Positions 34,539-41,659 of a stretch of DNA of 64,000 nt are shown here, piece after piece. The notes under the pieces were generated by a model. It had not been told where the DNA came from, made no database searches, and saw only the letters and a program-made list of their open reading frames with translations. The translations under genes and the position numbers were made by a program. The stretch spans positions 64,001 through 128,000 of the forward strand of contig CAWJZV010000048.1 of NCBI GenBank assembly GCA_963847445.1, in the 5' to 3' direction. Every line of letters starts with the position of its first letter. Positions within the stretch are counted from its first letter, which is position 1. The stretch comes from an uncultured delta proteobacterium. Its GTDB lineage: Bacteria; Desulfobacterota; Binatia; UBA9968.

Positions 34539-35552
34539 ATGTCCGAAGTGCTGAAACAATTCGAAAAAGAGCTGGAAAGTAAGAACTTCAAAGGCTACTG
34601 GCAAAACATTCAGGGCGATGCCGCGCGCCAGCCGGTGGCGTCCTTCGACGCCTGCCACTGGAAGGGCAAGGATCTCTTCGCCGCCATGGAAAAAGCCGGC
34701 GACGTGGTCGGTCTCGACGTGTCGTTCCGGCGCGTCATCCAGCTGTGGAATCCCGCTCTCAAAAACGGCACCTCGCGCACCCTGGTGTTGAATCTGCAAT
34801 TGCTCAAGCCCGGCGAGAATGCCGGATCGCACCGCCATATCGCCGGCGCGATCCGATTTATTCTGAAAGGCCATGGCACCCGGCTGATCGTCGAAGGCGA
34901 ATCCTTTGAAATCGGCGAAGGCGATTTCGTCACCACGCCGAGCTGGACCTGGCACGATCATGAAAATCGCGGTGAGAACATGATGTGGCTCGACGGTCTC
35001 GACGCGCCGCTGGTGCGATTGCTCGAAACCGACTTTCACGAACCCGATCCGCGCAAGAAACAGACCGTCACCCGGCCCGACGGCTACACGCTCGCCACCA
35101 CCGGCCCGCTGCGCCCGGCGTGGGTCAAACCGAATACCATCCAACCGCCGGCCTTTTGCTACAAATGGGCCGACACCGAAAGCGCCTTGAATAAAGTCGG
35201 CGAGCAGCCCGGCGACCCGTTCAACGGCATCGTCCTCGACTATGCCAATCCGTTGAACGGCGGGCCGACCCTGCCGACCATGAACTGCCAGATCCACATG
35301 CTGCGCGCCGGCGAAAAAACCAAAAGCCACCGCCACACCAGCTCGGATATCTATCATGTCTGGCGCGGCAGCGGCGTCAGCTACGTCGGCGACAAGCGCT
35401 TCGAGTGGGAGCAAGGCGACTCCTTCGTCGTGCCGCTCTGGCAAAACCACCGCCATGAAAACACCTCGAAGGATCCGGCGATCTTCTTCGTCATGAACGA
35501 CAAACCACTGATGGACGCCATCGGCCACTACCGCGAAGAAGCGCAGGGATAA
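34539..35552 (+). CDS. Bicupin, gentisate 1,2-dioxygenase-like
   Basis: HRH, TPSWTWHDH, WLDGLDAP, YANPLNGGPTLPTM, second HRHT. Confidence 0.88.
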   Translation: MSEVLKQFEKELESKNFKGYWQNIQGDAARQPVASFDACHWKGKDLFAAMEKAGDVVGLDVSFRRVIQLWNPALKNGTSRTLVLNLQLLKPGENAGSHRHIAGAIRFILKGHGTRLIVEGESFEIGEGDFVTTPSWTWHDHENRGENMMWLDGLDAPLVRLLETDFHEPDPRKKQTVTRPDGYTLATTGPLRPAWVKPNTIQPPAFCYKWADTESALNKVGEQPGDPFNGIVLDYANPLNGGPTLPTMNCQIHMLRAGEKTKSHRHTSSDIYHVWRGSGVSYVGDKRFEWEQGDSFVVPLWQNHRHENTSKDPAIFFVMNDKPLMDAIGHYREEAQG

Positions 35553-35634
35553 CAGCTGTAGACCGAATAGGTTGTCGGGGCGCAGCAAGCTGCGCCCATT
35601 TCTATCCGCGATCACGCACAAGGAGTCGCGATCT

Positions 35635-36384
35635 ATGTTCACGCTCGATCACAAACTCAGCCCTGACGAATTCATCAAAACCTTCTTCGAAGTCAACCGG
35701 CAGGACCACCAACGCCCGCCCCATCCTTGGGAAGAGCTATTTCGCAACGGCAAATGCACCAAGGAGCAACTCCAGGGTTGGGGCAAGGAACGCTACTATT
35801 TCACCAAGCAGGTGCCGGTGAAGGAATATTCGATCCTGTATAACTGCCCGCACACCGACGTGCGCCGCATGTGGCTGCCCAAGGCCATCGAAGAAGAAGG
35901 CGAAGATCTGATCGGCAAATCCGGCAAACCTCATCCGGAATATTGGCTCGATGTCTGCGTCGGCATGGGCATGGACCGCGAGTTCGTAAAGAACTCCGAG
36001 CCGCTCTACGGCGTCAAGTTCGCCGTCGACAGCTTCGCCAACGCCGCCTTTAAAACCTCCTGGCTCCTCGGCGTCGCCGTCTCCGAAGGCGACGACACCG
36101 CCAAGGCGATGTCGCGCGACTTAGATATTTTTCGTAAACACTACCAATGGGTGCCTGACGACACCCTGACGTTTTACAAACTGCACGCCGAAGTCGATCA
36201 GGAACATGGCTTGCTGCGCAAAGAAATTTTGAAAAAGTACGCCGACACCAAAGAGCTGCAAGAAGCCTGCATCAACGCCCAACTGATGAAAAACAGCATG
36301 CGCTGGGTGATGGCCGACTGCATCTACATGGAGTACGTCGTCCGCGCCGCGAAGTTGAATAACAGCGCCGCGGCAGCGGCGTAG
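35635..36384 (+). CDS. PqqC/TenA/CADD-like iron-containing redox enzyme
   Basis: HPW..LF..G, ERYYF, EEEG...HPEYW, FYKLHAEVDQEH. Confidence 0.8.
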   Translation: MFTLDHKLSPDEFIKTFFEVNRQDHQRPPHPWEELFRNGKCTKEQLQGWGKERYYFTKQVPVKEYSILYNCPHTDVRRMWLPKAIEEEGEDLIGKSGKPHPEYWLDVCVGMGMDREFVKNSEPLYGVKFAVDSFANAAFKTSWLLGVAVSEGDDTAKAMSRDLDIFRKHYQWVPDDTLTFYKLHAEVDQEHGLLRKEILKKYADTKELQEACINAQLMKNSMRWVMADCIYMEYVVRAAKLNNSAAAAA

Positions 36385-36540: not shown

Positions 36541-37500
36541 AATGTCTTCTCATCCTCGCAATCTCTCGTCATCTCGCACCAGCTCTCGCCGGCGCCGCGC
36601 CCATTCGCATCGCCTACAGCTCCATCAGCGCCGCCATGCTGCCGCTGTTCGTCGCCAAAGACAAAAAGCTTTTCGACAAACAGGGCGTCGACGTTGAAAT
36701 AACCTACATCCGCGGCATCGCCATCGAAGCGTTGATTGCCAACGAAGTGCAATTCACCCGCGCCTCGCCGCCGACCGTCGTTGGCGCCACGCTGCGCGGC
36801 GCCGATCTCGCGGTCATCGCCAACACGATTAACGTGCCGGTGTTTTCCTTGATGACCCGTGCCGACCTGCGGCGTCCGGAAGATCTCCGAGGAAAGAAAA
36901 TCGGCGTGACCAGCCTGGGCGATTCGCCGGATCTCGTGCTCAGCATGATTTTAGACAAGTTCGGCTTGCAGCGCGGCCGGGATGTCACCGTTATGGCGAT
37001 TCGCGGCGGCATGCCCGACATGATCCTCGCCGTCAGCAAGGGTTTCGTCGACGGCGCCATGATCTCGGCGCCCAGCAACTTGCGCGGCATGAAATTGGGC
37101 CTGCGCGAGCTCATCGACTCCGCCGACCTAGGCGTCCCCTATCTCAATTCACCGCTCAGCACCCGGCGGGCCTTCATCAAGACTAACCGCGACATCGTGC
37201 TGCAAAGTGCTGCGCGCTTACTATCAAGGCGTGCAAGAAACCCACAACGACCGCGACGGCGCCATGAAGATCCTCGCCAAATACACCCGCGTCAGCGAGC
37301 CAGAAATCCTCGCCGAGTCCTACCGCATCTACGGCCAGAAGCACTTGCAGAAAACCATCAGCGTCGATTTGGAAGGGGTCCGGCAATTATTGAAAACGCT
37401 GGGTAAAGAAGCCGCCAGCGCCAACCCCAGCCAGTTTGTCGACGCGTCGCTGGTACAGGAGTTGGAGAAGGAAGGGTTGTTTCAGCAGAAGAGCCGGTGA
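36536..37500 (+). CDS. ABC substrate-binding protein, NMT1/SsuA-like (frameshifted, start uncertain)
   Basis: IRIAYSSIS, EDLRGKKIGVT, FVDASLVQELEKEG. Confidence 0.85.
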
Positions 37501-37809
37501 CTCAAGCATTCATCCCGGATTCCACTGTCGAAGCTACGCTAACCGTTGAGCGCGGGGCGAGACTAGAGTAGCGAAGGTGCTGACGGTGCTTCAAGCTAAC
37601 GCAGGGGACGTACAATTGCTCGAGGTCTGTGCTTGAGTTTGCCAAGCCGGTGCACGGGATTCGCGGTTAACCAGCGCTTTGAAGAAAAAGCGATTAAATT
37701 TGCCGTGCCTGATAATTCCGCTTTCCTGCAGGCCCATTATCAGGTTGACAGCTGCCCCTACGGTTGATAGCTCTGCAATCGACTCAGCGATTCATTGCAC
37801 AATAAAACG

Positions 37810-38583
37810 ATGGAAAACGTCGACGCTAAATTCGTCCTTTTCACCCAGCCCGGTTGAAGCAGTTGCCTAAGAACGAAAGAGTTTCTTTCGAAAAAAGGCA
37901 TCGACTTCATCGCGCTCGATATCTTGAATGATCCCACGGCATTAGAGCGATTGGGCAAACTTGGCGTTCGCACCGTGCCGGTTTTGGCCAGCGGCGATCA
38001 ATTCATCTTTTGCCAGAACCTGGAAGACGTCGCCGAGTTCGTCGGCTTGCAAGGCAGCGGGCATACGCCCCTCGATCCAACTGCGTTGATGGCGAAATGG
38101 CTCACAGTGCTGCGCGCGGCGCAGCGCTACATTCGTCAGCTCCCGAGCGAACGGCTGGTCGAGCGCGCGATCGATAATCGCGACCGCTCGCTCCGACTCT
38201 TGAGCCACCACATCTTTCGCATCGGCGAGGCTTTTCTCGAAACCGCCATTGACGGCGTCGAATACCGCACCGACAATGCCAACATCCCGCCCGAGGATGG
38301 AAGCTGCACCGCCGCAGAGGAAATTGTCGCCTACGGTGACGGCATTGTCGAGCGACTTGAGAACTGGTGGAGCCAACTCACGGACAGATCCTGCCGGCAA
38401 CCGGTGAAAACCTTCTATGGCACGCCGCCGATGCACCAGCTTTTCGAACGCTCCACCTGGCACTCCGCGCAACACACGCGCCAGCTGATGGCCGTGCTCG
38501 AGCGCTTCGGTATCGAGCCGCAGGGGCGACTCACGGCTGAAGATCTCGCCGGCCTGCCTCTGCCGCAAGGCCTGTGGGAATGA
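37810..38583 (+). CDS. Selenoprotein: UxxC glutaredoxin/NrdH-like domain fused to a DinB-like domain (257 aa)
   Basis: MENVDAKFVLFTQPG-TGA(37855)-SSCLRTKEFL...RTVPV, in frame with ORF 37924-38583; DinB histidines HHIF and WHSAQH. Confidence 0.85.
37856..37908 (+). promoter_or_regulatory. Bacterial SECIS-like hairpin
   Basis: Outer stem tgcct/aggca, inner stem cgaaag/ctttcg, loop AGTTT beginning 22 nt after the UGA. Confidence 0.7.
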
Positions 38584-38602
38584 GTAAGAAAATTCGGAGT
38601 AT

Positions 38603-38677
38603 CTCTCGCCAAGGCGCAAAGGCGCGAAGGTAAGAAAAAATATTTCCGAACTTAGCGTCTTTGCGCCTTTGCGGGAG
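38603..38677. repeat. GCGCAAAG-type inverted repeat
   Basis: ctctcgccaaggcgcaaaggcgcgaag...cttagcgtctttgcgcctttgcgggag. Confidence 0.8.
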
Positions 38678-38702
38678 TAATTCCCCAAGGAACGGAAAAT
38701 CG

Positions 38703-40100
38703 ATGGGACTGACGCAAGAAGTTGCGCACTTTGTCGCGCGCACACGCTACCGGGATATTCCCAAAGAGGTCGTCCAACTGGCGCGCGGATTCATCCTGGA
38801 TGGACTCGGCGTCGCCTTGGCCGGTTCGACCGATGAGTGCTCGCGCATTGTTCAAACCCAGGTCCGGCAAATGAACGGCAAGGGCGAGTCGTCGATTGTC
38901 GGCACCGCGCTCACAGCGCCGGCAGCCAAAGCGGCGCTGGCCAACGGCGTGGCCGGCCATGCGATGGATTACGACGATACCCAGCTTTCAACTTCCAAGG
39001 AAGCCGTTTACGGTCTCCTGACGCATCCGACCACGCCTGTGCTCGCCGCCGTGTTGGCCATCGGTGAGAAAGAAAAAATCAGCGGCGAGCATTTTGTTTT
39101 GGCCTATCTGTTAGGCGTCGAAGTCGAGTGCCGCATCGCCGATGCGATCAACCCACGCCACTATCAGGATGGTTTTCACTCCACCGCAACCATGGGCGGC
39201 ATCGGCGCCGCCATGGCGGTGGGAAAAATCCTTCGACTCAACGAGCGAAAGTTGATTCAAACGTTGGGCATTGCCGCCAGCATGGCGTCTGGTCTGCGCG
39301 AAAACTTCGGCACCATGACCAAGCCGCTGCACGCCGGACGCGCCGCCGAGAACGGCGTGAGCGCCGCGTTGTTGGCGCGCGACGGCTTCACTGCGGCGGC
39401 GAATATTCTCGAAGCCCGCCGCGGCTTTTTCAACGCCATGGCCGGCGGCTGCGACGAGAGCAAGATTACCGGCCGCCTAGGTTCGCCTTTCTTCATGAAG
39501 GAGCCGGGAATTTCCATCAAGCCGTATCCATCCGGCTCACTCTCGCACCCGGCGCAAGATTTGATTCTCGACCTGGTCAAACAGCATGATCTTAGCGCGG
39601 GCGAAATCGATCACGTCGAAGTCGGCACCAATTCCAACGTGCCCAACGCCTTGATTTATCCGATGCCCAAGACCGCGCTGGAAGGGAAATTCAGCATTCC
39701 ATTCTGCATGGCAATCGCTATCCTCGAGCGCAAGGCCGGCATCGCGCAGTTCCAGGACCGCAAGGTGCGCGACAAGAAGGTCGTCGAGTTGATGAAGCGG
39801 GTGACGCTCTGTGTCGACGATGAACTTGAGAAGCTCGGCTACGATCAGGTGCGTTCGCGGATTCGCATCAGGCTGAACAATGGCCGGGTGATTGAAGGGC
39901 GCTATGACGTCGCCCGTGGACACCCGGAGAAACCGATGAGCTGGGCCGAGTTGGGCGACAAATTTCGCGACTGCGCCGGGCTCGTGCTGGCGGACAAGGA
40001 CGCCGAGACGGTGATCCAATTGGTCGCCCGCATCGAAAAACTGAAAAGCTTAAGCCCCCTGTTCCGCGCTCTGACCAGCGCCGCGCGCCAAGAGTGGTAA
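38703..40100 (+). CDS. MmgE/PrpD family protein
   Basis: NGVAGHAMDYDD, HP, GFHST, TKPLHAG, KPYPS, GKFSIPF, GHPEKP. Confidence 0.93.
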   Translation: MGLTQEVAHFVARTRYRDIPKEVVQLARGFILDGLGVALAGSTDECSRIVQTQVRQMNGKGESSIVGTALTAPAAKAALANGVAGHAMDYDDTQLSTSKEAVYGLLTHPTTPVLAAVLAIGEKEKISGEHFVLAYLLGVEVECRIADAINPRHYQDGFHSTATMGGIGAAMAVGKILRLNERKLIQTLGIAASMASGLRENFGTMTKPLHAGRAAENGVSAALLARDGFTAAANILEARRGFFNAMAGGCDESKITGRLGSPFFMKEPGISIKPYPSGSLSHPAQDLILDLVKQHDLSAGEIDHVEVGTNSNVPNALIYPMPKTALEGKFSIPFCMAIAILERKAGIAQFQDRKVRDKKVVELMKRVTLCVDDELEKLGYDQVRSRIRIRLNNGRVIEGRYDVARGHPEKPMSWAELGDKFRDCAGLVLADKDAETVIQLVARIEKLKSLSPLFRALTSAARQEW

Positions 40101-40632: not shown

Positions 40633-41659
40633 ATGAAAAAGATTGGTATTTACTTCGTCATTCTCACCGCGATTTTCGCCCTGGCGTCGCTGGTTGCGGC
40701 GCAAGATGCCGCGCTGATTCAGGCGGCGCGAAAGGAAGGCAAGGTCGTCTGGTACACTTCGCTGGCGATTCCGTCTTCCACGGCGATCGCGCACTATTTT
40801 CAAAACAAATACAAAGGCATCGAAGTCGAAGTGCACCGCAACGGATCGCAGCGGGTGCTGCAACGATTCATGCAGGAAGCGGCGGCGGGAATAAAGAATG
40901 CCGATATCATGCATACTTCGGATGCCGGCCACTTCGAGCTTCTCAAGGACAAAGGGATGCTGCTCAAATTCACGCCCCAGGGCGTCGCCGGTTTTCCGGA
41001 CGGCTTTAAGGACAAGGCCGGCTTTTACTACGGCATGCGGGCGACACTTTCGGTCATCGCTCACAATCCCGAAGATCAGTTGCGGAAAAGGACGCGCCGC
41101 AAACCTGGAAGGATCTTTTAAATCCCAGATGGAGCGGTAAGATGGTCACCGCCCATCCCGGCTACAGCGGCATCATCATGACCCATGTGCTGGCGCTGGT
41201 GAATCTCTACGGTTGGGACTACTTTCGCGATCTGGCGAAAAACAAATTGCATATCGTCCAGTCGGCCAACGATCCGGCCGGTGTCGTCGCATCGGGAGAG
41301 CGGCCGGTGGGCGTAAACGGCGCGGAATATTTCTATTACAAAACCCAAAAACAGGGTAATCCGATCAAGATCATCTATCCCAAAGAGGGCGTTCCGCTAG
41401 TGGTATCGCCGGTGGCCATCGCCAAAGACGCGCCCCATCCCAACGCGGCAAAACTCTTCACTGAGTTTATTTTCGCCAAAGAGTCGCAGCAGTTGTTGGC
41501 GGATAAAGAAGGACTTTATACCGGCCATCCTGACGTCACCTATCCGGCGGACAAGCCCAAGCTCAAGGACTTGAAACTGTCTGGCCGCCGAACGCCGACG
41601 AATTGGAAAAGCGCAATGCCGAGATAAAAAAACGCTTCGTTGAGTACTTTGGCGCGTAA
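40633..41659 (+). CDS. ABC substrate-binding protein, Fe3+/thiamine/polyamine family (frameshifted)
   Basis: AARKEGKVVWYTS, VASGERP, APHPNAAKLF. Confidence 0.88.

What the first reader, a model, noticed from the sequence alone, without database searches (positions are those of the whole stretch)
37810..38583. Hidden selenoprotein: UxxC glutaredoxin fused to a DinB-like (thiol S-transferase-like) domain
Seen: ATG at 37810 gives FTQPG-UGA-SSC with the UGA exactly at the first position of a CxxC motif. The frame continues through the glutaredoxin TVP motif into a DinB-like domain with His ligands. A hairpin directly after the UGA has a G-containing apical loop 22 nt downstream. Established: bacterial SECIS geometry, Sec replacing the attacking Cys in thioredoxin-fold proteins, and DinB-superfamily members acting as bacillithiol or mycothiol transferases. 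Inference: a single polypeptide coupling thiol conjugation with Sec-dependent reduction. An indel error cannot explain an in-frame TGA.
Basis: partly seen in the sequence, partly recalled or inferred. Interest (0 to 1): 0.75.

Follow-up and report, generated by a model that had tools for sequence, protein, structure and literature searches.

The report
Selenocysteine glutaredoxin-DinB fusion gene
The early "stop" codon in this gene almost certainly encodes selenocysteine in the active site of a small redox domain fused to a metal-binding DinB-type domain; gene callers cut this protein family short and the selenoprotein lists I read do not name it.

Summary
ORF 37810-38583 (+) has an in-frame TGA at codon 16 (37855-37857), at the first Cys position of a glutaredoxin CxxC motif. 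The C-terminal half is a DinB/YfiT-type four-helix bundle with a conserved His triad.

The TGA sits in the same column in 20 of 20 full-length orthologues and in 4 of 4 members of a 30%-identity sister clade. In 50 full-length homologues that column is nearly invariant Cys.

A 17-nt hairpin lies 16 nt after the TGA (37874-37890, GUU loop). It is nucleotide-identical in all 24 TGA-forms, synonymous sites included. None of 80 Cys-form genes forms it.

The genome has selA, selB and a Sec-containing selD. selA and selB carry private 1-nt insertions. selC is not assembled, but 5 of 5 congeners have it.

Public proteins start after the TGA (0 of 120 best hits cover the N-terminus). No NCBIfam model reaches its cut-off, and a 2026 selenoproteome review does not mention DinB.

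Verdict: a real selenoprotein gene, a new variant of the known UxxC Grx-type kind. Biochemical function is inferred, not shown. This scan has noted the same family in at least 20 other genomes.

The parts
37810..38583 (+). Complete coding sequence of the Grx-DinB selenoprotein: 257 residues, UGA16 = Sec, own stop TGA at 38581-38583
   Evidence: no G000-private indel inside the gene against 4 congeners
37855..37857 (+). In-frame UGA, predicted selenocysteine codon (U16), first position of U-S-S-C
   Evidence: TGA in the same column in 20/20 orthologues and 4/4 distant-clade members; nearly invariant Cys there in 50 full-length homologues
37864..37866 (+). Cys19, predicted resolving cysteine of the UxxC dyad
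   Evidence: nearly invariant column C19
37874..37890 (+). Core SECIS-like hairpin: 7-bp stem, GUU apical loop at 37881-37883, 16 nt after the UGA
   Evidence: 17-mer identical in 24/24 TGA-forms; longest invariant nucleotide run in the gene, 17 against next-longest 6; 7 stem pairs kept in 35-36 of 36 unique sequences with one two-sided change; 0/80 Cys-forms form it
37851..37912 (+). Extended lower stem enclosing the UGA and the core hairpin; variable among orthologues
   Evidence: fold; one search shows it kept in close orthologues, compensated in L033 (GUCUC/GAGAC) and lost in L036-L039
37834..38007 (+). Glutaredoxin/NrdH-like thioredoxin-fold domain (residues 9-66)
   Evidence: Pfam PF00462; PDB sequence hits 7c10, 7c12, 3zij, 1h75; Foldseek 3zit TM 0.88
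38113..38487 (+). DinB_2-like four-helix-bundle domain (residues 102-226)
   Evidence: Pfam PF12867, 23.9 bits, below cut-off; Foldseek 6iz2 TM 0.83, 1rxq, 2f22, 2qe9
38209..38211 (+). His134, first predicted metal ligand
   Evidence: nearly invariant, invariant in A2; aligns with His of DinB-like 3di5
38461..38475 (+). His218-x3-His222, second and third predicted metal ligands, in motif E-R-x-x-W-H-x-A-Q-H-T-R-Q
   Evidence: H222 invariant and H218 nearly invariant; align with H-x3-H of 3di5
38551..38565 (+). Conserved C-terminal tail G-L-P-L-P (residues 248-252)
   Evidence: G248, L249, P250, P252 nearly invariant

Best explanation
SHOWN BY COMPARISON: 37810-38583 is one gene for a 257-residue selenoprotein. 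UGA16 is recoded as selenocysteine with the help of a bacterial SECIS-type hairpin that starts 16 nt downstream and lies inside the coding sequence (codons 22-27, T-K-E-F-L-S). The protein has two domains. The first is an N-terminal glutaredoxin/NrdH-like thioredoxin fold whose attacking residue is Sec in a U-S-S-C dyad. The second is a C-terminal DinB/YfiT-type four-helix bundle with a His134/His218/His222 triad. It is the Sec form of a widespread, uncharacterised Grx-DinB fusion family whose other members carry C-[ST]-S-C.

INFERRED MECHANISM (about 40% for this part): the His triad holds a divalent metal and binds a substrate, either an electrophile or a glutathione conjugate or mixed disulfide. 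The tethered selenolate U16 attacks in cis, and C19 resolves the adduct as a selenenylsulfide. Thioredoxin reductase or glutathione then re-reduces it. On this reading the Grx domain supplies in protein form the thiol that free-standing DinB S-transferases take from solution.

The confidence figure below is for the identity claim: a real Sec-decoding gene with this architecture.
For: TGA CONSERVATION
- The TGA is in the same column in 20/20 full-length orthologues at 72-100% identity and in 4/4 members of a clade at about 30% identity.
- That column is nearly invariant Cys in 50 aligned full-length homologues.

HAIRPIN
- The 17-mer is identical in 24/24 TGA-forms at the same distance from the TGA.
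- Of 155 conserved degenerate codon columns in 19 orthologues, only 11 use a single codon. Six of those are the consecutive codons 22-27.
- The longest invariant nucleotide run is 17; the next-longest is 6.
- With 18 stand-alone Grx-like TGA genes added (36 unique sequences), 7 stem pairs hold in 35-36 of 36. Pair +17/+33 switches between C-G (21) and A-U (15). The loop is GUU (29) or GUA (7).
- Control: 0/80 Cys-form genes form all 7 pairs (they form 2-5), and they show 49 distinct 18-mers.

GENETIC CODE
- TGA is an ordinary stop here. It closes 996 of 2383 open frames of at least 350 codons, and it ends this gene itself.

SEC MACHINERY
- selA scores 569.8 bits (over cut-off), selB is present, and selD scores 360.3 bits with its own in-frame TGA. 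All lie at C14:191.4-195.9 kb.
- tRNA-Sec is found in 5/5 congeners at 74-77 bits.

INDEPENDENT DNA
- Contigs from two metagenome runs cover 37702-38302 (8 differences) and 37826-38060 (3 differences). No difference at 37855-37857 is listed, though 75 further rows were not shown.

STRUCTURE
- AF2 model: pLDDT 95.1, pTM 0.92.
- Foldseek: DR0053 6iz2 TM 0.83, YfiT 1rxq, and Trx-like 3zit TM 0.88.

DATABASE TRUNCATION
- 0 of the 120 best database proteins cover the N-terminus; lengths are 202-238 aa.
Against: - There is no experimental evidence of selenium incorporation or expression.
- selC was not found in this assembly, which is 91.8% complete. The best Rfam hits are tRNA-Ser at 45 bits, below the 47-bit cut-off, and the ARAGORN SeC call has no Rfam support. 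Only a 28-nt 3' fragment remains.
- In this assembly selA and selB carry five private 1-nt insertions and are out of frame.
- K-E-F-L is also conserved as protein in Cys-forms. Part of the hairpin's conservation is therefore protein-level, although the synonymous sites are not.
- DinB_2 is just under Pfam's cut-off, and sequence matches to solved DinB proteins are weak (E 0.03).
- For the mechanism: there is no conserved gene neighbour. No substrate is known for any family member.
Confidence: 0.9

Rival explanations
1. The gene is a selenoprotein gene by descent but is not decoded in this particular organism. On this reading the Sec machinery has decayed: selA and selB are truly frameshifted, and selC was disrupted by an integrating element.
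For: G000 has five private 1-nt insertions in selA and selB, against intact 463-aa SelA and 625-665-aa SelB in 3/3 congeners. No selC is found, only a 28-nt 3' fragment beside an integrase gene.
Against: Frame breaks also hit unrelated genes: an SBP gene at 40633-41627 and a CysS/MshC-like gene at C30:28574-29672. That pattern fits assembly indel errors. selD keeps its own TGA. The Grx-DinB gene has no private indel. An integrated element normally regenerates the tRNA at its other end, which could lie beyond the contig.
Confidence: 0.06
2. The TGA is a true stop, as annotated in public databases. The product is a roughly 219-aa DinB-like protein starting at TTG 37924 or another internal start, and the upstream 15 codons are untranslated or a tiny leader peptide.
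For: All 120 best database proteins are called this way, at 202-238 aa. TGA is the commonest stop in this genome.
Against: That product would begin in the middle of the Grx fold and lack strand 1 and the CxxC. The frame upstream of the TGA is conserved as protein (M-E-x-x-x-x-F-V-L-F-T-Q-P-G) in 20/20 orthologues. Full-length Cys-forms exist. The invariant hairpin has no role under this reading.
Confidence: 0.02
3. UGA16 is read through as Cys, Trp or another standard residue by near-cognate decoding, rather than as Sec.
For: Not excluded by sequence alone. The Cys-forms show that Cys works at this site.
Against: A hairpin with SECIS geometry is under nucleotide-level selection only in TGA-forms. 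sel genes are present in the genome and its congeners. There is no sign of TGA reassignment.
Confidence: 0.015
4. The TGA is a sequencing or assembly error, or a recent nonsense mutation in a pseudogene.
For: This assembly has many indel-type frame breaks.
Against: The TGA is the same in 24/24 related genes from other assemblies. The metagenome contigs laid over it list no difference there. Indels do not create an in-frame TGA, and the frame is intact on both sides.
Confidence: 0.005

Closest known systems
Sec-containing glutaredoxin (Grx, PF00462, UxxC), listed as experimentally verified in the 2026 review PMC13188914 (passages read), and the 'Grx' and 'Grx-like' UxxC selenoprotein families of Zhang & Gladyshev 2008, PMC2398784 (passages read)
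   Same: Thioredoxin-fold domain with Sec at the first position of UxxC. The SECIS lies just downstream inside the coding region. The best PDB sequence matches are glutaredoxins 7c10 and 7c12 (E 7e-18). Earlier scan notes say these are the Sec-to-Cys form of Clostridium oremlandii Grx1; I did not check that.
   Different: Those are stand-alone proteins of about 80-100 residues. This one carries a 170-residue DinB-type domain, uses a U-S-S-C dyad, and forms its own family with Cys-containing full-length homologues. The word DinB occurs 0 times in either paper.
Stand-alone Grx-like selenoproteins of the same lineage (UXX-star type; NCBIfam NF041212, NF041211, NF047338)
   Same: They share the context (F/Y)-T-Q-P-G-U-x-x-C...K-E-(F/Y)-L-S. 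They have nearly the same hairpin at the same distance from the UGA. One such gene is in this genome, at C46:175813-176034.
   Different: Scores are below cut-off: 36.9 against 66, 28.5 against 100, and 26.5 against 97. Many of those proteins have a second TGA near the C-terminus, and this one has none. They have no DinB domain.
DinB/YfiT (S-transferase-like) superfamily: YfiT and BstA bacillithiol transferases, mycothiol S-transferase, DR0053 (review PMC10950700, passages read)
   Same: Four-helix-bundle fold (Foldseek TM 0.83 to 6iz2, prob 1.00 to 1rxq). Conserved His plus H-x3-H triad at the positions of the metal ligands.
   Different: Those enzymes are single-domain and use a free low-molecular-weight thiol. 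Sequence similarity is marginal, below Pfam's cut-off. No activity is known for this family, and here a redox domain is covalently attached.
Cys-form Grx-DinB fusion proteins, named only 'glutaredoxin' or 'hypothetical protein' in the sources seen
   Same: Same two-domain architecture and length, and the same invariant residues (G204, H222, R224, Q225). Identity is 28-41%. At least 553 loci were found in one-genome-per-species contigs, and of the 80 listed most are Burkholderiales MAGs.
   Different: They have Cys instead of Sec, no hairpin (0/80), and different codon usage at K-E-F-L.

Membership tests
Bacterial selenoprotein gene (Sec-decoded UGA) | In-frame UGA that aligns with Cys in homologues and is conserved in orthologues | tested here: met
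   20/20 and 4/4 TGA-forms; nearly invariant Cys in 50 full-length homologues
Bacterial selenoprotein gene (Sec-decoded UGA) | SECIS hairpin shortly downstream of the UGA with a G in the apical loop. The criteria (loop 16-37 nt from the UGA) are recalled from the bSECISearch model; that program was not available. | tested here: met
   7-bp stem starting 16 nt after the UGA, and a GUU loop 23 nt after it. Invariant in 24/24; one two-sided compensatory pair across 36 unique sequences; absent from 80/80 Cys-forms
Bacterial selenoprotein gene (Sec-decoded UGA) | selA, selB and selD in the genome | tested here: met
   All three lie at C14:191.4-195.9 kb, and selD has its own TGA. In this assembly selA and selB carry private 1-nt insertions.
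Bacterial selenoprotein gene (Sec-decoded UGA) | selC (tRNA-Sec) in the genome | tested here: inconclusive
   Not found in the 91.8%-complete assembly. Only a 28-nt 3' fragment at C12:77575-77602. Present in 5/5 congeners.
Bacterial selenoprotein gene (Sec-decoded UGA) | Selenium actually incorporated | not testable with these tools
   Needs 75Se labelling or mass spectrometry
Glutaredoxin (Pfam PF00462) | HMM score over the gathering cut-off | tested here: met
   49.4 bits against 22.9
Glutaredoxin (Pfam PF00462) | CxxC-type dyad at the start of helix 1, and a cis-Pro (TVP) motif | tested here: met
   U16-S-S-C19 precedes helix 17-28 in the model; T55-V56-P57, with P57 nearly invariant
Glutaredoxin (Pfam PF00462) | Glutathione-dependent activity | not testable with these tools
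DinB_2 (Pfam PF12867) / DinB-YfiT superfamily | HMM score over the gathering cut-off | tested here: not met
   23.9 bits against 24.8. Some relatives carry a precomputed PF12867 hit.
DinB_2 (Pfam PF12867) / DinB-YfiT superfamily | Four-helix-bundle DinB fold | tested here: met
   AF2 pLDDT 95.1; Foldseek 6iz2 TM 0.83, 2f22 0.75, 2qe9 0.70, 1rxq prob 1.00
DinB_2 (Pfam PF12867) / DinB-YfiT superfamily | Three-His metal site (His plus H-x3-H) | tested here: met
   H134, H218 and H222 are conserved and align with His residues of DinB-like 3di5. Metal binding itself was not tested.
DinB_2 (Pfam PF12867) / DinB-YfiT superfamily | Thiol S-transferase activity | not testable with these tools
   Needs enzyme assays
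UXX-star Grx-like selenoproteins (NCBIfam NF041212 and subfamilies) | Score over cut-off, and a second Sec three residues from the C-terminus | tested here: not met
   36.9 against 66 and lower. The protein ends L-W-E-stop with a single internal TGA.
NrdH / YruB glutaredoxin-like proteins (TIGR02194, TIGR02196) | Score over cut-off | tested here: not met
   37.0 against 85.75 and 41.8 against 88.55

The most novel reading that the evidence does not exclude
Grx-DinB may be a widespread, uncatalogued class of metal-dependent seleno/thiol enzyme. In it a protein-borne selenolate (or thiolate) replaces the free low-molecular-weight thiol of DinB S-transferases and works directly at the His3-metal centre. 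The conserved K-E-F-L coding stretch may also be pre-adapted to become a SECIS. AAAGAG-UUUCUU is self-complementary, so synonymous changes alone could create the hairpin. That would explain why Sec and Cys forms have switched more than once and why fusions and stand-alone Grx-like selenoproteins share the same hairpin. A rare MmgE/PrpD-Grx-DinB fusion (P0170), together with the MmgE/PrpD gene directly downstream here, could point to a partner pathway.
Probability: 0.2. Interest if true: 0.7.

Novelty: new variant of a known kind. Interest (0 to 1): 0.55.

Why it matters
UxxC thioredoxin-fold selenoproteins are a known kind. This two-domain family is not covered by any NCBIfam model above cut-off. 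It is not named in the 2008 GOS selenoproteome paper or the 2026 review I read. It is truncated in all 120 best public protein records. Recognising it would correct the annotation of the N-terminally cut 'hypothetical' proteins this search returned and add a family to bacterial selenoproteomes. It would also give the poorly understood DinB/YfiT superfamily a member whose attached redox domain hints at the chemistry. The natural Sec and Cys pairs, and a SECIS embedded in a conserved peptide motif, make it a convenient system for studying how Sec/Cys switches evolve.

Tried and rejected
- Rfam gathering scan of the whole window: 0 matches. Rfam brought nothing for this hairpin.
- ARAGORN called a tRNA-SeC at C2:139122-139203. 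I rejected it: the acceptor stem is poor and there is no Rfam tRNA or tRNA-Sec hit at E<=1.
- The RF01852 hits in G000 are tRNA-Ser and tRNA-Leu.
- Conserved neighbours. In 20 TGA-form loci the MmgE/PrpD gene follows in only the 7 closest. NMT1-like SBP genes (10 loci) and amidohydrolase-like genes (9 loci) appear on either side. In 80 Cys-form loci with only 600-nt flanks, the commonest neighbour is an SBP-like ORF in 17, and PrpD-like sequence appears in 1. No partner emerged.
- Search for longer fused forms found 1 protein, P0272 (502 aa, TctC-type). It may be a mis-call across a TGA.
- A sample of 250 other genomes of the phylum gave 0 matches at E<=1e-20, so the family is not found in those searched outside the window's own order.
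- Promoter and terminator scan: nothing convincing at the gene's ends.
- Expression. One contig of an RNA library (X15) covers 38366-38631 with 7 differences. Short RNA-library contigs cover only the conserved 37828-37910. DNA can be present in such libraries and these are relatives, so this is no proof of transcription. No run held half or more of the sampled words.
- MFE comparison of the Sec and Cys regions is uninformative (-6.7 against -6.6 kcal/mol). The pair counts are informative.
- The careful tree search did not finish, so only the quick tree is reported.
- Literature searches found no paper on a Grx-DinB fusion or a DinB selenoprotein. The searches were selenoprotein+DinB+glutaredoxin, selenocysteine+DinB, selenoprotein with YfiT or DinB terms, and glutaredoxin+DinB+fusion+thiol. 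The library holds only open-access papers and bioRxiv. I opened no supplementary tables, and they might list the family under a generic Grx name.
Full report
OBSERVATION. The frame from ATG 37810 to TGA 38581-38583 is open for 257 codons except for one TGA at 37855-37857, codon 16. The local sequence reads F-T-Q-P-G-U-S-S-C. Pfam finds Glutaredoxin at residues 9-66 (49.4 bits, cut-off 22.9). It finds DinB_2 at residues 102-226 (23.9 bits, just under the 24.8 cut-off). No NCBIfam model reaches its cut-off. The best are the generic YruB, NrdH and Uxx-star glutaredoxin-like models. The wider fold of 37850-37915 has z = -3.5 against shuffles.

IS THE TGA REAL AND CONSERVED? I made a six-frame search of 60 related genomes plus the window's own.
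- It gave 20 full-length matches, the window's gene included, at 72-100% identity. Every one has an internal TGA.
- When translated, 20 of 20 have the TGA in the same column, between (F/Y)-(T/V)-Q-P-G and S-S-C.
- One locus, L040, is out of frame after about residue 30. I dropped it from the codon statistics and trees.
- One of the 20, L034, comes from the unpublished genome G005. All counts hold without it (19 of 19).
- G035, also unpublished, appears only as a row.
- Five further genomes hold a homologue at 30-33% identity with one TGA. I fetched four of them, and 4 of 4 have Y-(Y/F)-R-P-G-U-F-T-C.

A search of 1.84 billion representative proteins found 1089 relatives at E<=1e-3. In an alignment of the window's protein (U read as C) with 49 of the full-length ones, the column of U16 is nearly invariant Cys. 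P14, G15, S18, C19, K23, E24, P57, H134, H218 and the invariant H222 are conserved as well. So the TGA stands exactly where homologues have the attacking cysteine.

THE HAIRPIN. The 17-mer is identical in all 24 TGA-forms, at the same distance from the TGA. This includes the clade whose proteins are only about 30% identical.
- In 19 orthologues, 155 codon columns have a conserved, degenerate amino acid. Only 11 of them use one codon throughout, and 6 of those 11 are the consecutive codons 22-27 that make up the hairpin.
- The longest run of invariant nucleotides in the gene is these 17. The next-longest is 6.
- I added 18 stand-alone Grx-like genes with TGA from the same order, one of them from this genome (C46:175813-176034). 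That gave 42 sequences, 36 of them unique.
- In these, seven stem pairs form in 35-36 of 36. One pair changes on both sides (C-G in 21, A-U in 15), one has a single U-A flip, and two show G-U wobbles. The loop is GUU (29) or GUA (7).
- As a control, I examined 80 Cys-form genes found by a pattern that requires Cys. They form only 2-5 of the 7 pairs (0 of 80 form all seven) and carry 49 different 18-mers at these codons.
- Those Cys-forms come mostly from high-GC Burkholderiales MAGs, so codon usage contributes to the difference.
- The peptide K-E-F-L is conserved in both forms. The hairpin arises only with the A/T-rich codon choice AAAGAG-UUUCUU, which is self-complementary.

GENETIC CODE AND MACHINERY. 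TGA is the commonest stop in this genome. It closes 996 of 2383 open frames of at least 350 codons, and it ends this gene too. Global reassignment is therefore excluded.
- selA (569.8 bits), selB and selD (360.3 bits, with its own in-frame TGA in V-K-S-A-G-U-A-A-K) lie together at C14:191.4-195.9 kb. They are not next to this gene.
- In this assembly selA changes frame near its end and selB runs in three frames.
- Against three congeners, which have intact SelA (463 aa) and SelB (625-665 aa), G000 has five private 1-nt insertions in 3.6 kb.
- Similar frame breaks hit an SBP gene at 40633-41627 and a CysS/MshC-like gene at C30:28574-29672. I read all of these as assembly indel errors, but reads are needed to prove it.
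- The Grx-DinB gene itself has no private indel against four congeners.
- selC was not found. The Rfam hits are tRNA-Ser and tRNA-Leu, and the ARAGORN call is unsupported.
- Five of five congeners have a tRNA-Sec at 74-77 bits.
- G000 retains only the tRNA's last 24-29 nt, at C12:77575-77602. These sit directly beside a 401-aa tyrosine-integrase gene (Arm-DNA-bind_2 plus Phage_integrase).
- That is the picture expected at the far end of an element integrated into selC. The complete gene may lie beyond the contig.

INDEPENDENT DNA. No public run held half or more of the sampled words. When contigs were laid at 85% likeness or better, one DNA run covered 37702-38302 with 8 differences and another covered 37826-38060 with 3. 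None of the listed differences is at 37855-37857, though 75 further rows were not shown.

WHAT THE PROTEIN IS. AlphaFold2, run with the 50-sequence alignment, gives pLDDT 95.1 and pTM 0.92.
- The C-terminal domain matches DinB/YfiT four-helix bundles: DR0053 6iz2 (TM 0.83), BH3987 2f22, YizA 2qe9 and YfiT 1rxq.
- The N-terminal domain matches the Trx-like BC3987 (3zit, TM 0.88), NrdH (1h75) and an archaeal Grx (3ic4).
- Matches to canonical GSTs have rmsd 10-16 Å and reflect only the domain order.
- By sequence, the best solved relatives of the N-domain are glutaredoxins 7c10 and 7c12 (E 7e-18).
- A profile of the C-domain alone reaches DinB-like 3di5 only at E 0.03. In that alignment H134 and H218-x3-H222 fall on its His residues.
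- DinB-superfamily enzymes are metal-dependent thiol S-transferases with a three-His site, according to passages of PMC10950700.
- This genome has glutathione synthetase (397.5 bits). I found no BshC, and the MshC-family hits are below cut-off. Glutathione is therefore the likely small thiol.

DISTRIBUTION AND EVOLUTION.
- Public proteins of the close relatives all start after the TGA. Of the 120 best hits, 0 cover the N-terminus (lengths 202-238 aa).
- Among the 150 best 50%-identity cluster representatives, 59 matched my pattern for an N-terminal CxxC...K-E-F, and by eye a few more carry CxxC.
- At least 14 representatives begin within seven residues after the CxxC position (M-R-T-K-E-F-L, M-K-E-F-L-S and similar). 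That is the signature of further TGA-forms, but I did not see their DNA.
- Cys-forms number at least 553 loci in the one-genome-per-species collection. Of the 80 listed, most are Burkholderiales MAGs.
- In a sample of 250 other genomes of the window's phylum, none had the family at E<=1e-20.
- A quick maximum-likelihood tree was built (72 rows, SH-aLRT support, careful search unfinished, midpoint root for drawing only). It puts the 19 close TGA-forms and the 4 distant ones in separate clades (99 and 100).
- Each clade is next to Cys-forms and a 97-supported branch separates them, so at least two Sec/Cys changes are needed.
- In a FastTree of the 71-residue Grx domain alone, the distant clade's Grx domain groups with the stand-alone Grx-like selenoproteins (support 0.94). 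The window's clade does not. This alignment is short, so it is a lead only.

FUNCTION. No neighbour is conserved. There is one lead. A representative protein, P0170 (721 aa), is an MmgE/PrpD protein fused to a Cys-form Grx-DinB. The gene directly downstream here (38703-40100) is an MmgE/PrpD protein, 30% identical to the N-terminal part of P0170. That adjacency holds only in the 7 closest orthologues and in 1 of 80 Cys-form loci.

My best mechanistic reading is inferred at about 40%. The His3-metal site binds a substrate. U16 attacks in cis and C19 resolves the adduct to a selenenylsulfide. The dyad is then re-reduced by thioredoxin reductase or glutathione.

COMPARISON WITH WHAT IS KNOWN. Sec-containing Grx (PF00462, UxxC) and 'Grx-like' UxxC families are established, according to passages of PMC2398784 and PMC13188914. 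Neither text contains DinB, YfiT or PF12867. My four literature searches for a DinB-type selenoprotein or a Grx-DinB fusion found nothing relevant. I read no supplements. The gene is therefore a new variant of a known kind: a UxxC Grx-type selenoprotein with a DinB-type catalytic partner domain.

EARLIER NOTES OF THIS SCAN. The same family has been noted in at least 20 other genomes, among them Burkholderiales and Dehalococcoidia/SAR202. Those notes led me to the 2026 review, which I then checked myself. Some of them report the gene beside selA-selB. Here it is on another contig.

Noticed in passing
G000:C12:77575-77602 and C12:77653-78855 (-), locus L059: The last 24-29 nt of tRNA-Sec, 100% identical to the congeners' selC, lie directly beside a 401-aa tyrosine integrase gene (Arm-DNA-bind_2 plus Phage_integrase). 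This looks like the far end of an element integrated into selC. The intact selC is not in the assembly.
   Followed up: partly
G000:C14:191462-194823 (selA, selB), locus L048: Five single-base insertions private to G000 put selA's C-terminus and selB out of frame. Three congeners have intact 463-aa SelA and 625-665-aa SelB. Probably assembly indel errors.
   Followed up: partly
window 40633-41627 (+); also window 36636-37500 (+); G000:C30:28574-29672 (-): More genes are split between frames. The two halves of an SBP_bac_1-type binding protein match profile positions 15-84 and 189-307 in different frames. An NMT1-like binding protein appears to change frame near 37207. A CysS/MshC-like gene lies in two frames. 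The assembly seems rich in indel errors.
   Followed up: partly
window 38603-38685: A REP-like dispersed inverted repeat lies just after the gene's stop. The arm around 38643-38680 has at least 67 short matches in G000 and the other arm about 20. Contig depth in metagenome runs jumps 50-100-fold there.
   Followed up: partly
G000:C46:175813-176034 (+), locus L050: A stand-alone Grx-like selenoprotein gene of about 80 codons (Y-T-Q-P-G-U-G-P-C) in the same genome. It has an 8-bp stem and a GUU loop at the same distance from its UGA.
   Followed up: yes
loci L041-L044 (genomes G036, G045, G034, G032): A second TGA-form clade of the fusion, about 30% identical, carries the identical 17-nt hairpin. 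Its Grx domain groups with stand-alone Grx-like selenoproteins in a short-alignment tree. This may reflect domain replacement or an independent fusion.
   Followed up: partly
protein P0170 and window 38703-40100 (+): A 721-aa representative protein fuses MmgE/PrpD N and C domains to a Cys-form Grx-DinB. The window's gene is followed by an MmgE/PrpD gene. This is a possible functional link resting on one fusion cluster and on closely related loci.
   Followed up: partly
protein P0221: One full-length family representative has S-T-S-S in place of C-x-x-C, a redox-dead variant of the dyad.
   Followed up: no
window 34539-36384 (+): Upstream genes are a bicupin protein (Cupin_2 twice) and a TENA/THI-4/PQQC-family protein. 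They are not conserved next to the Grx-DinB gene.
   Followed up: no
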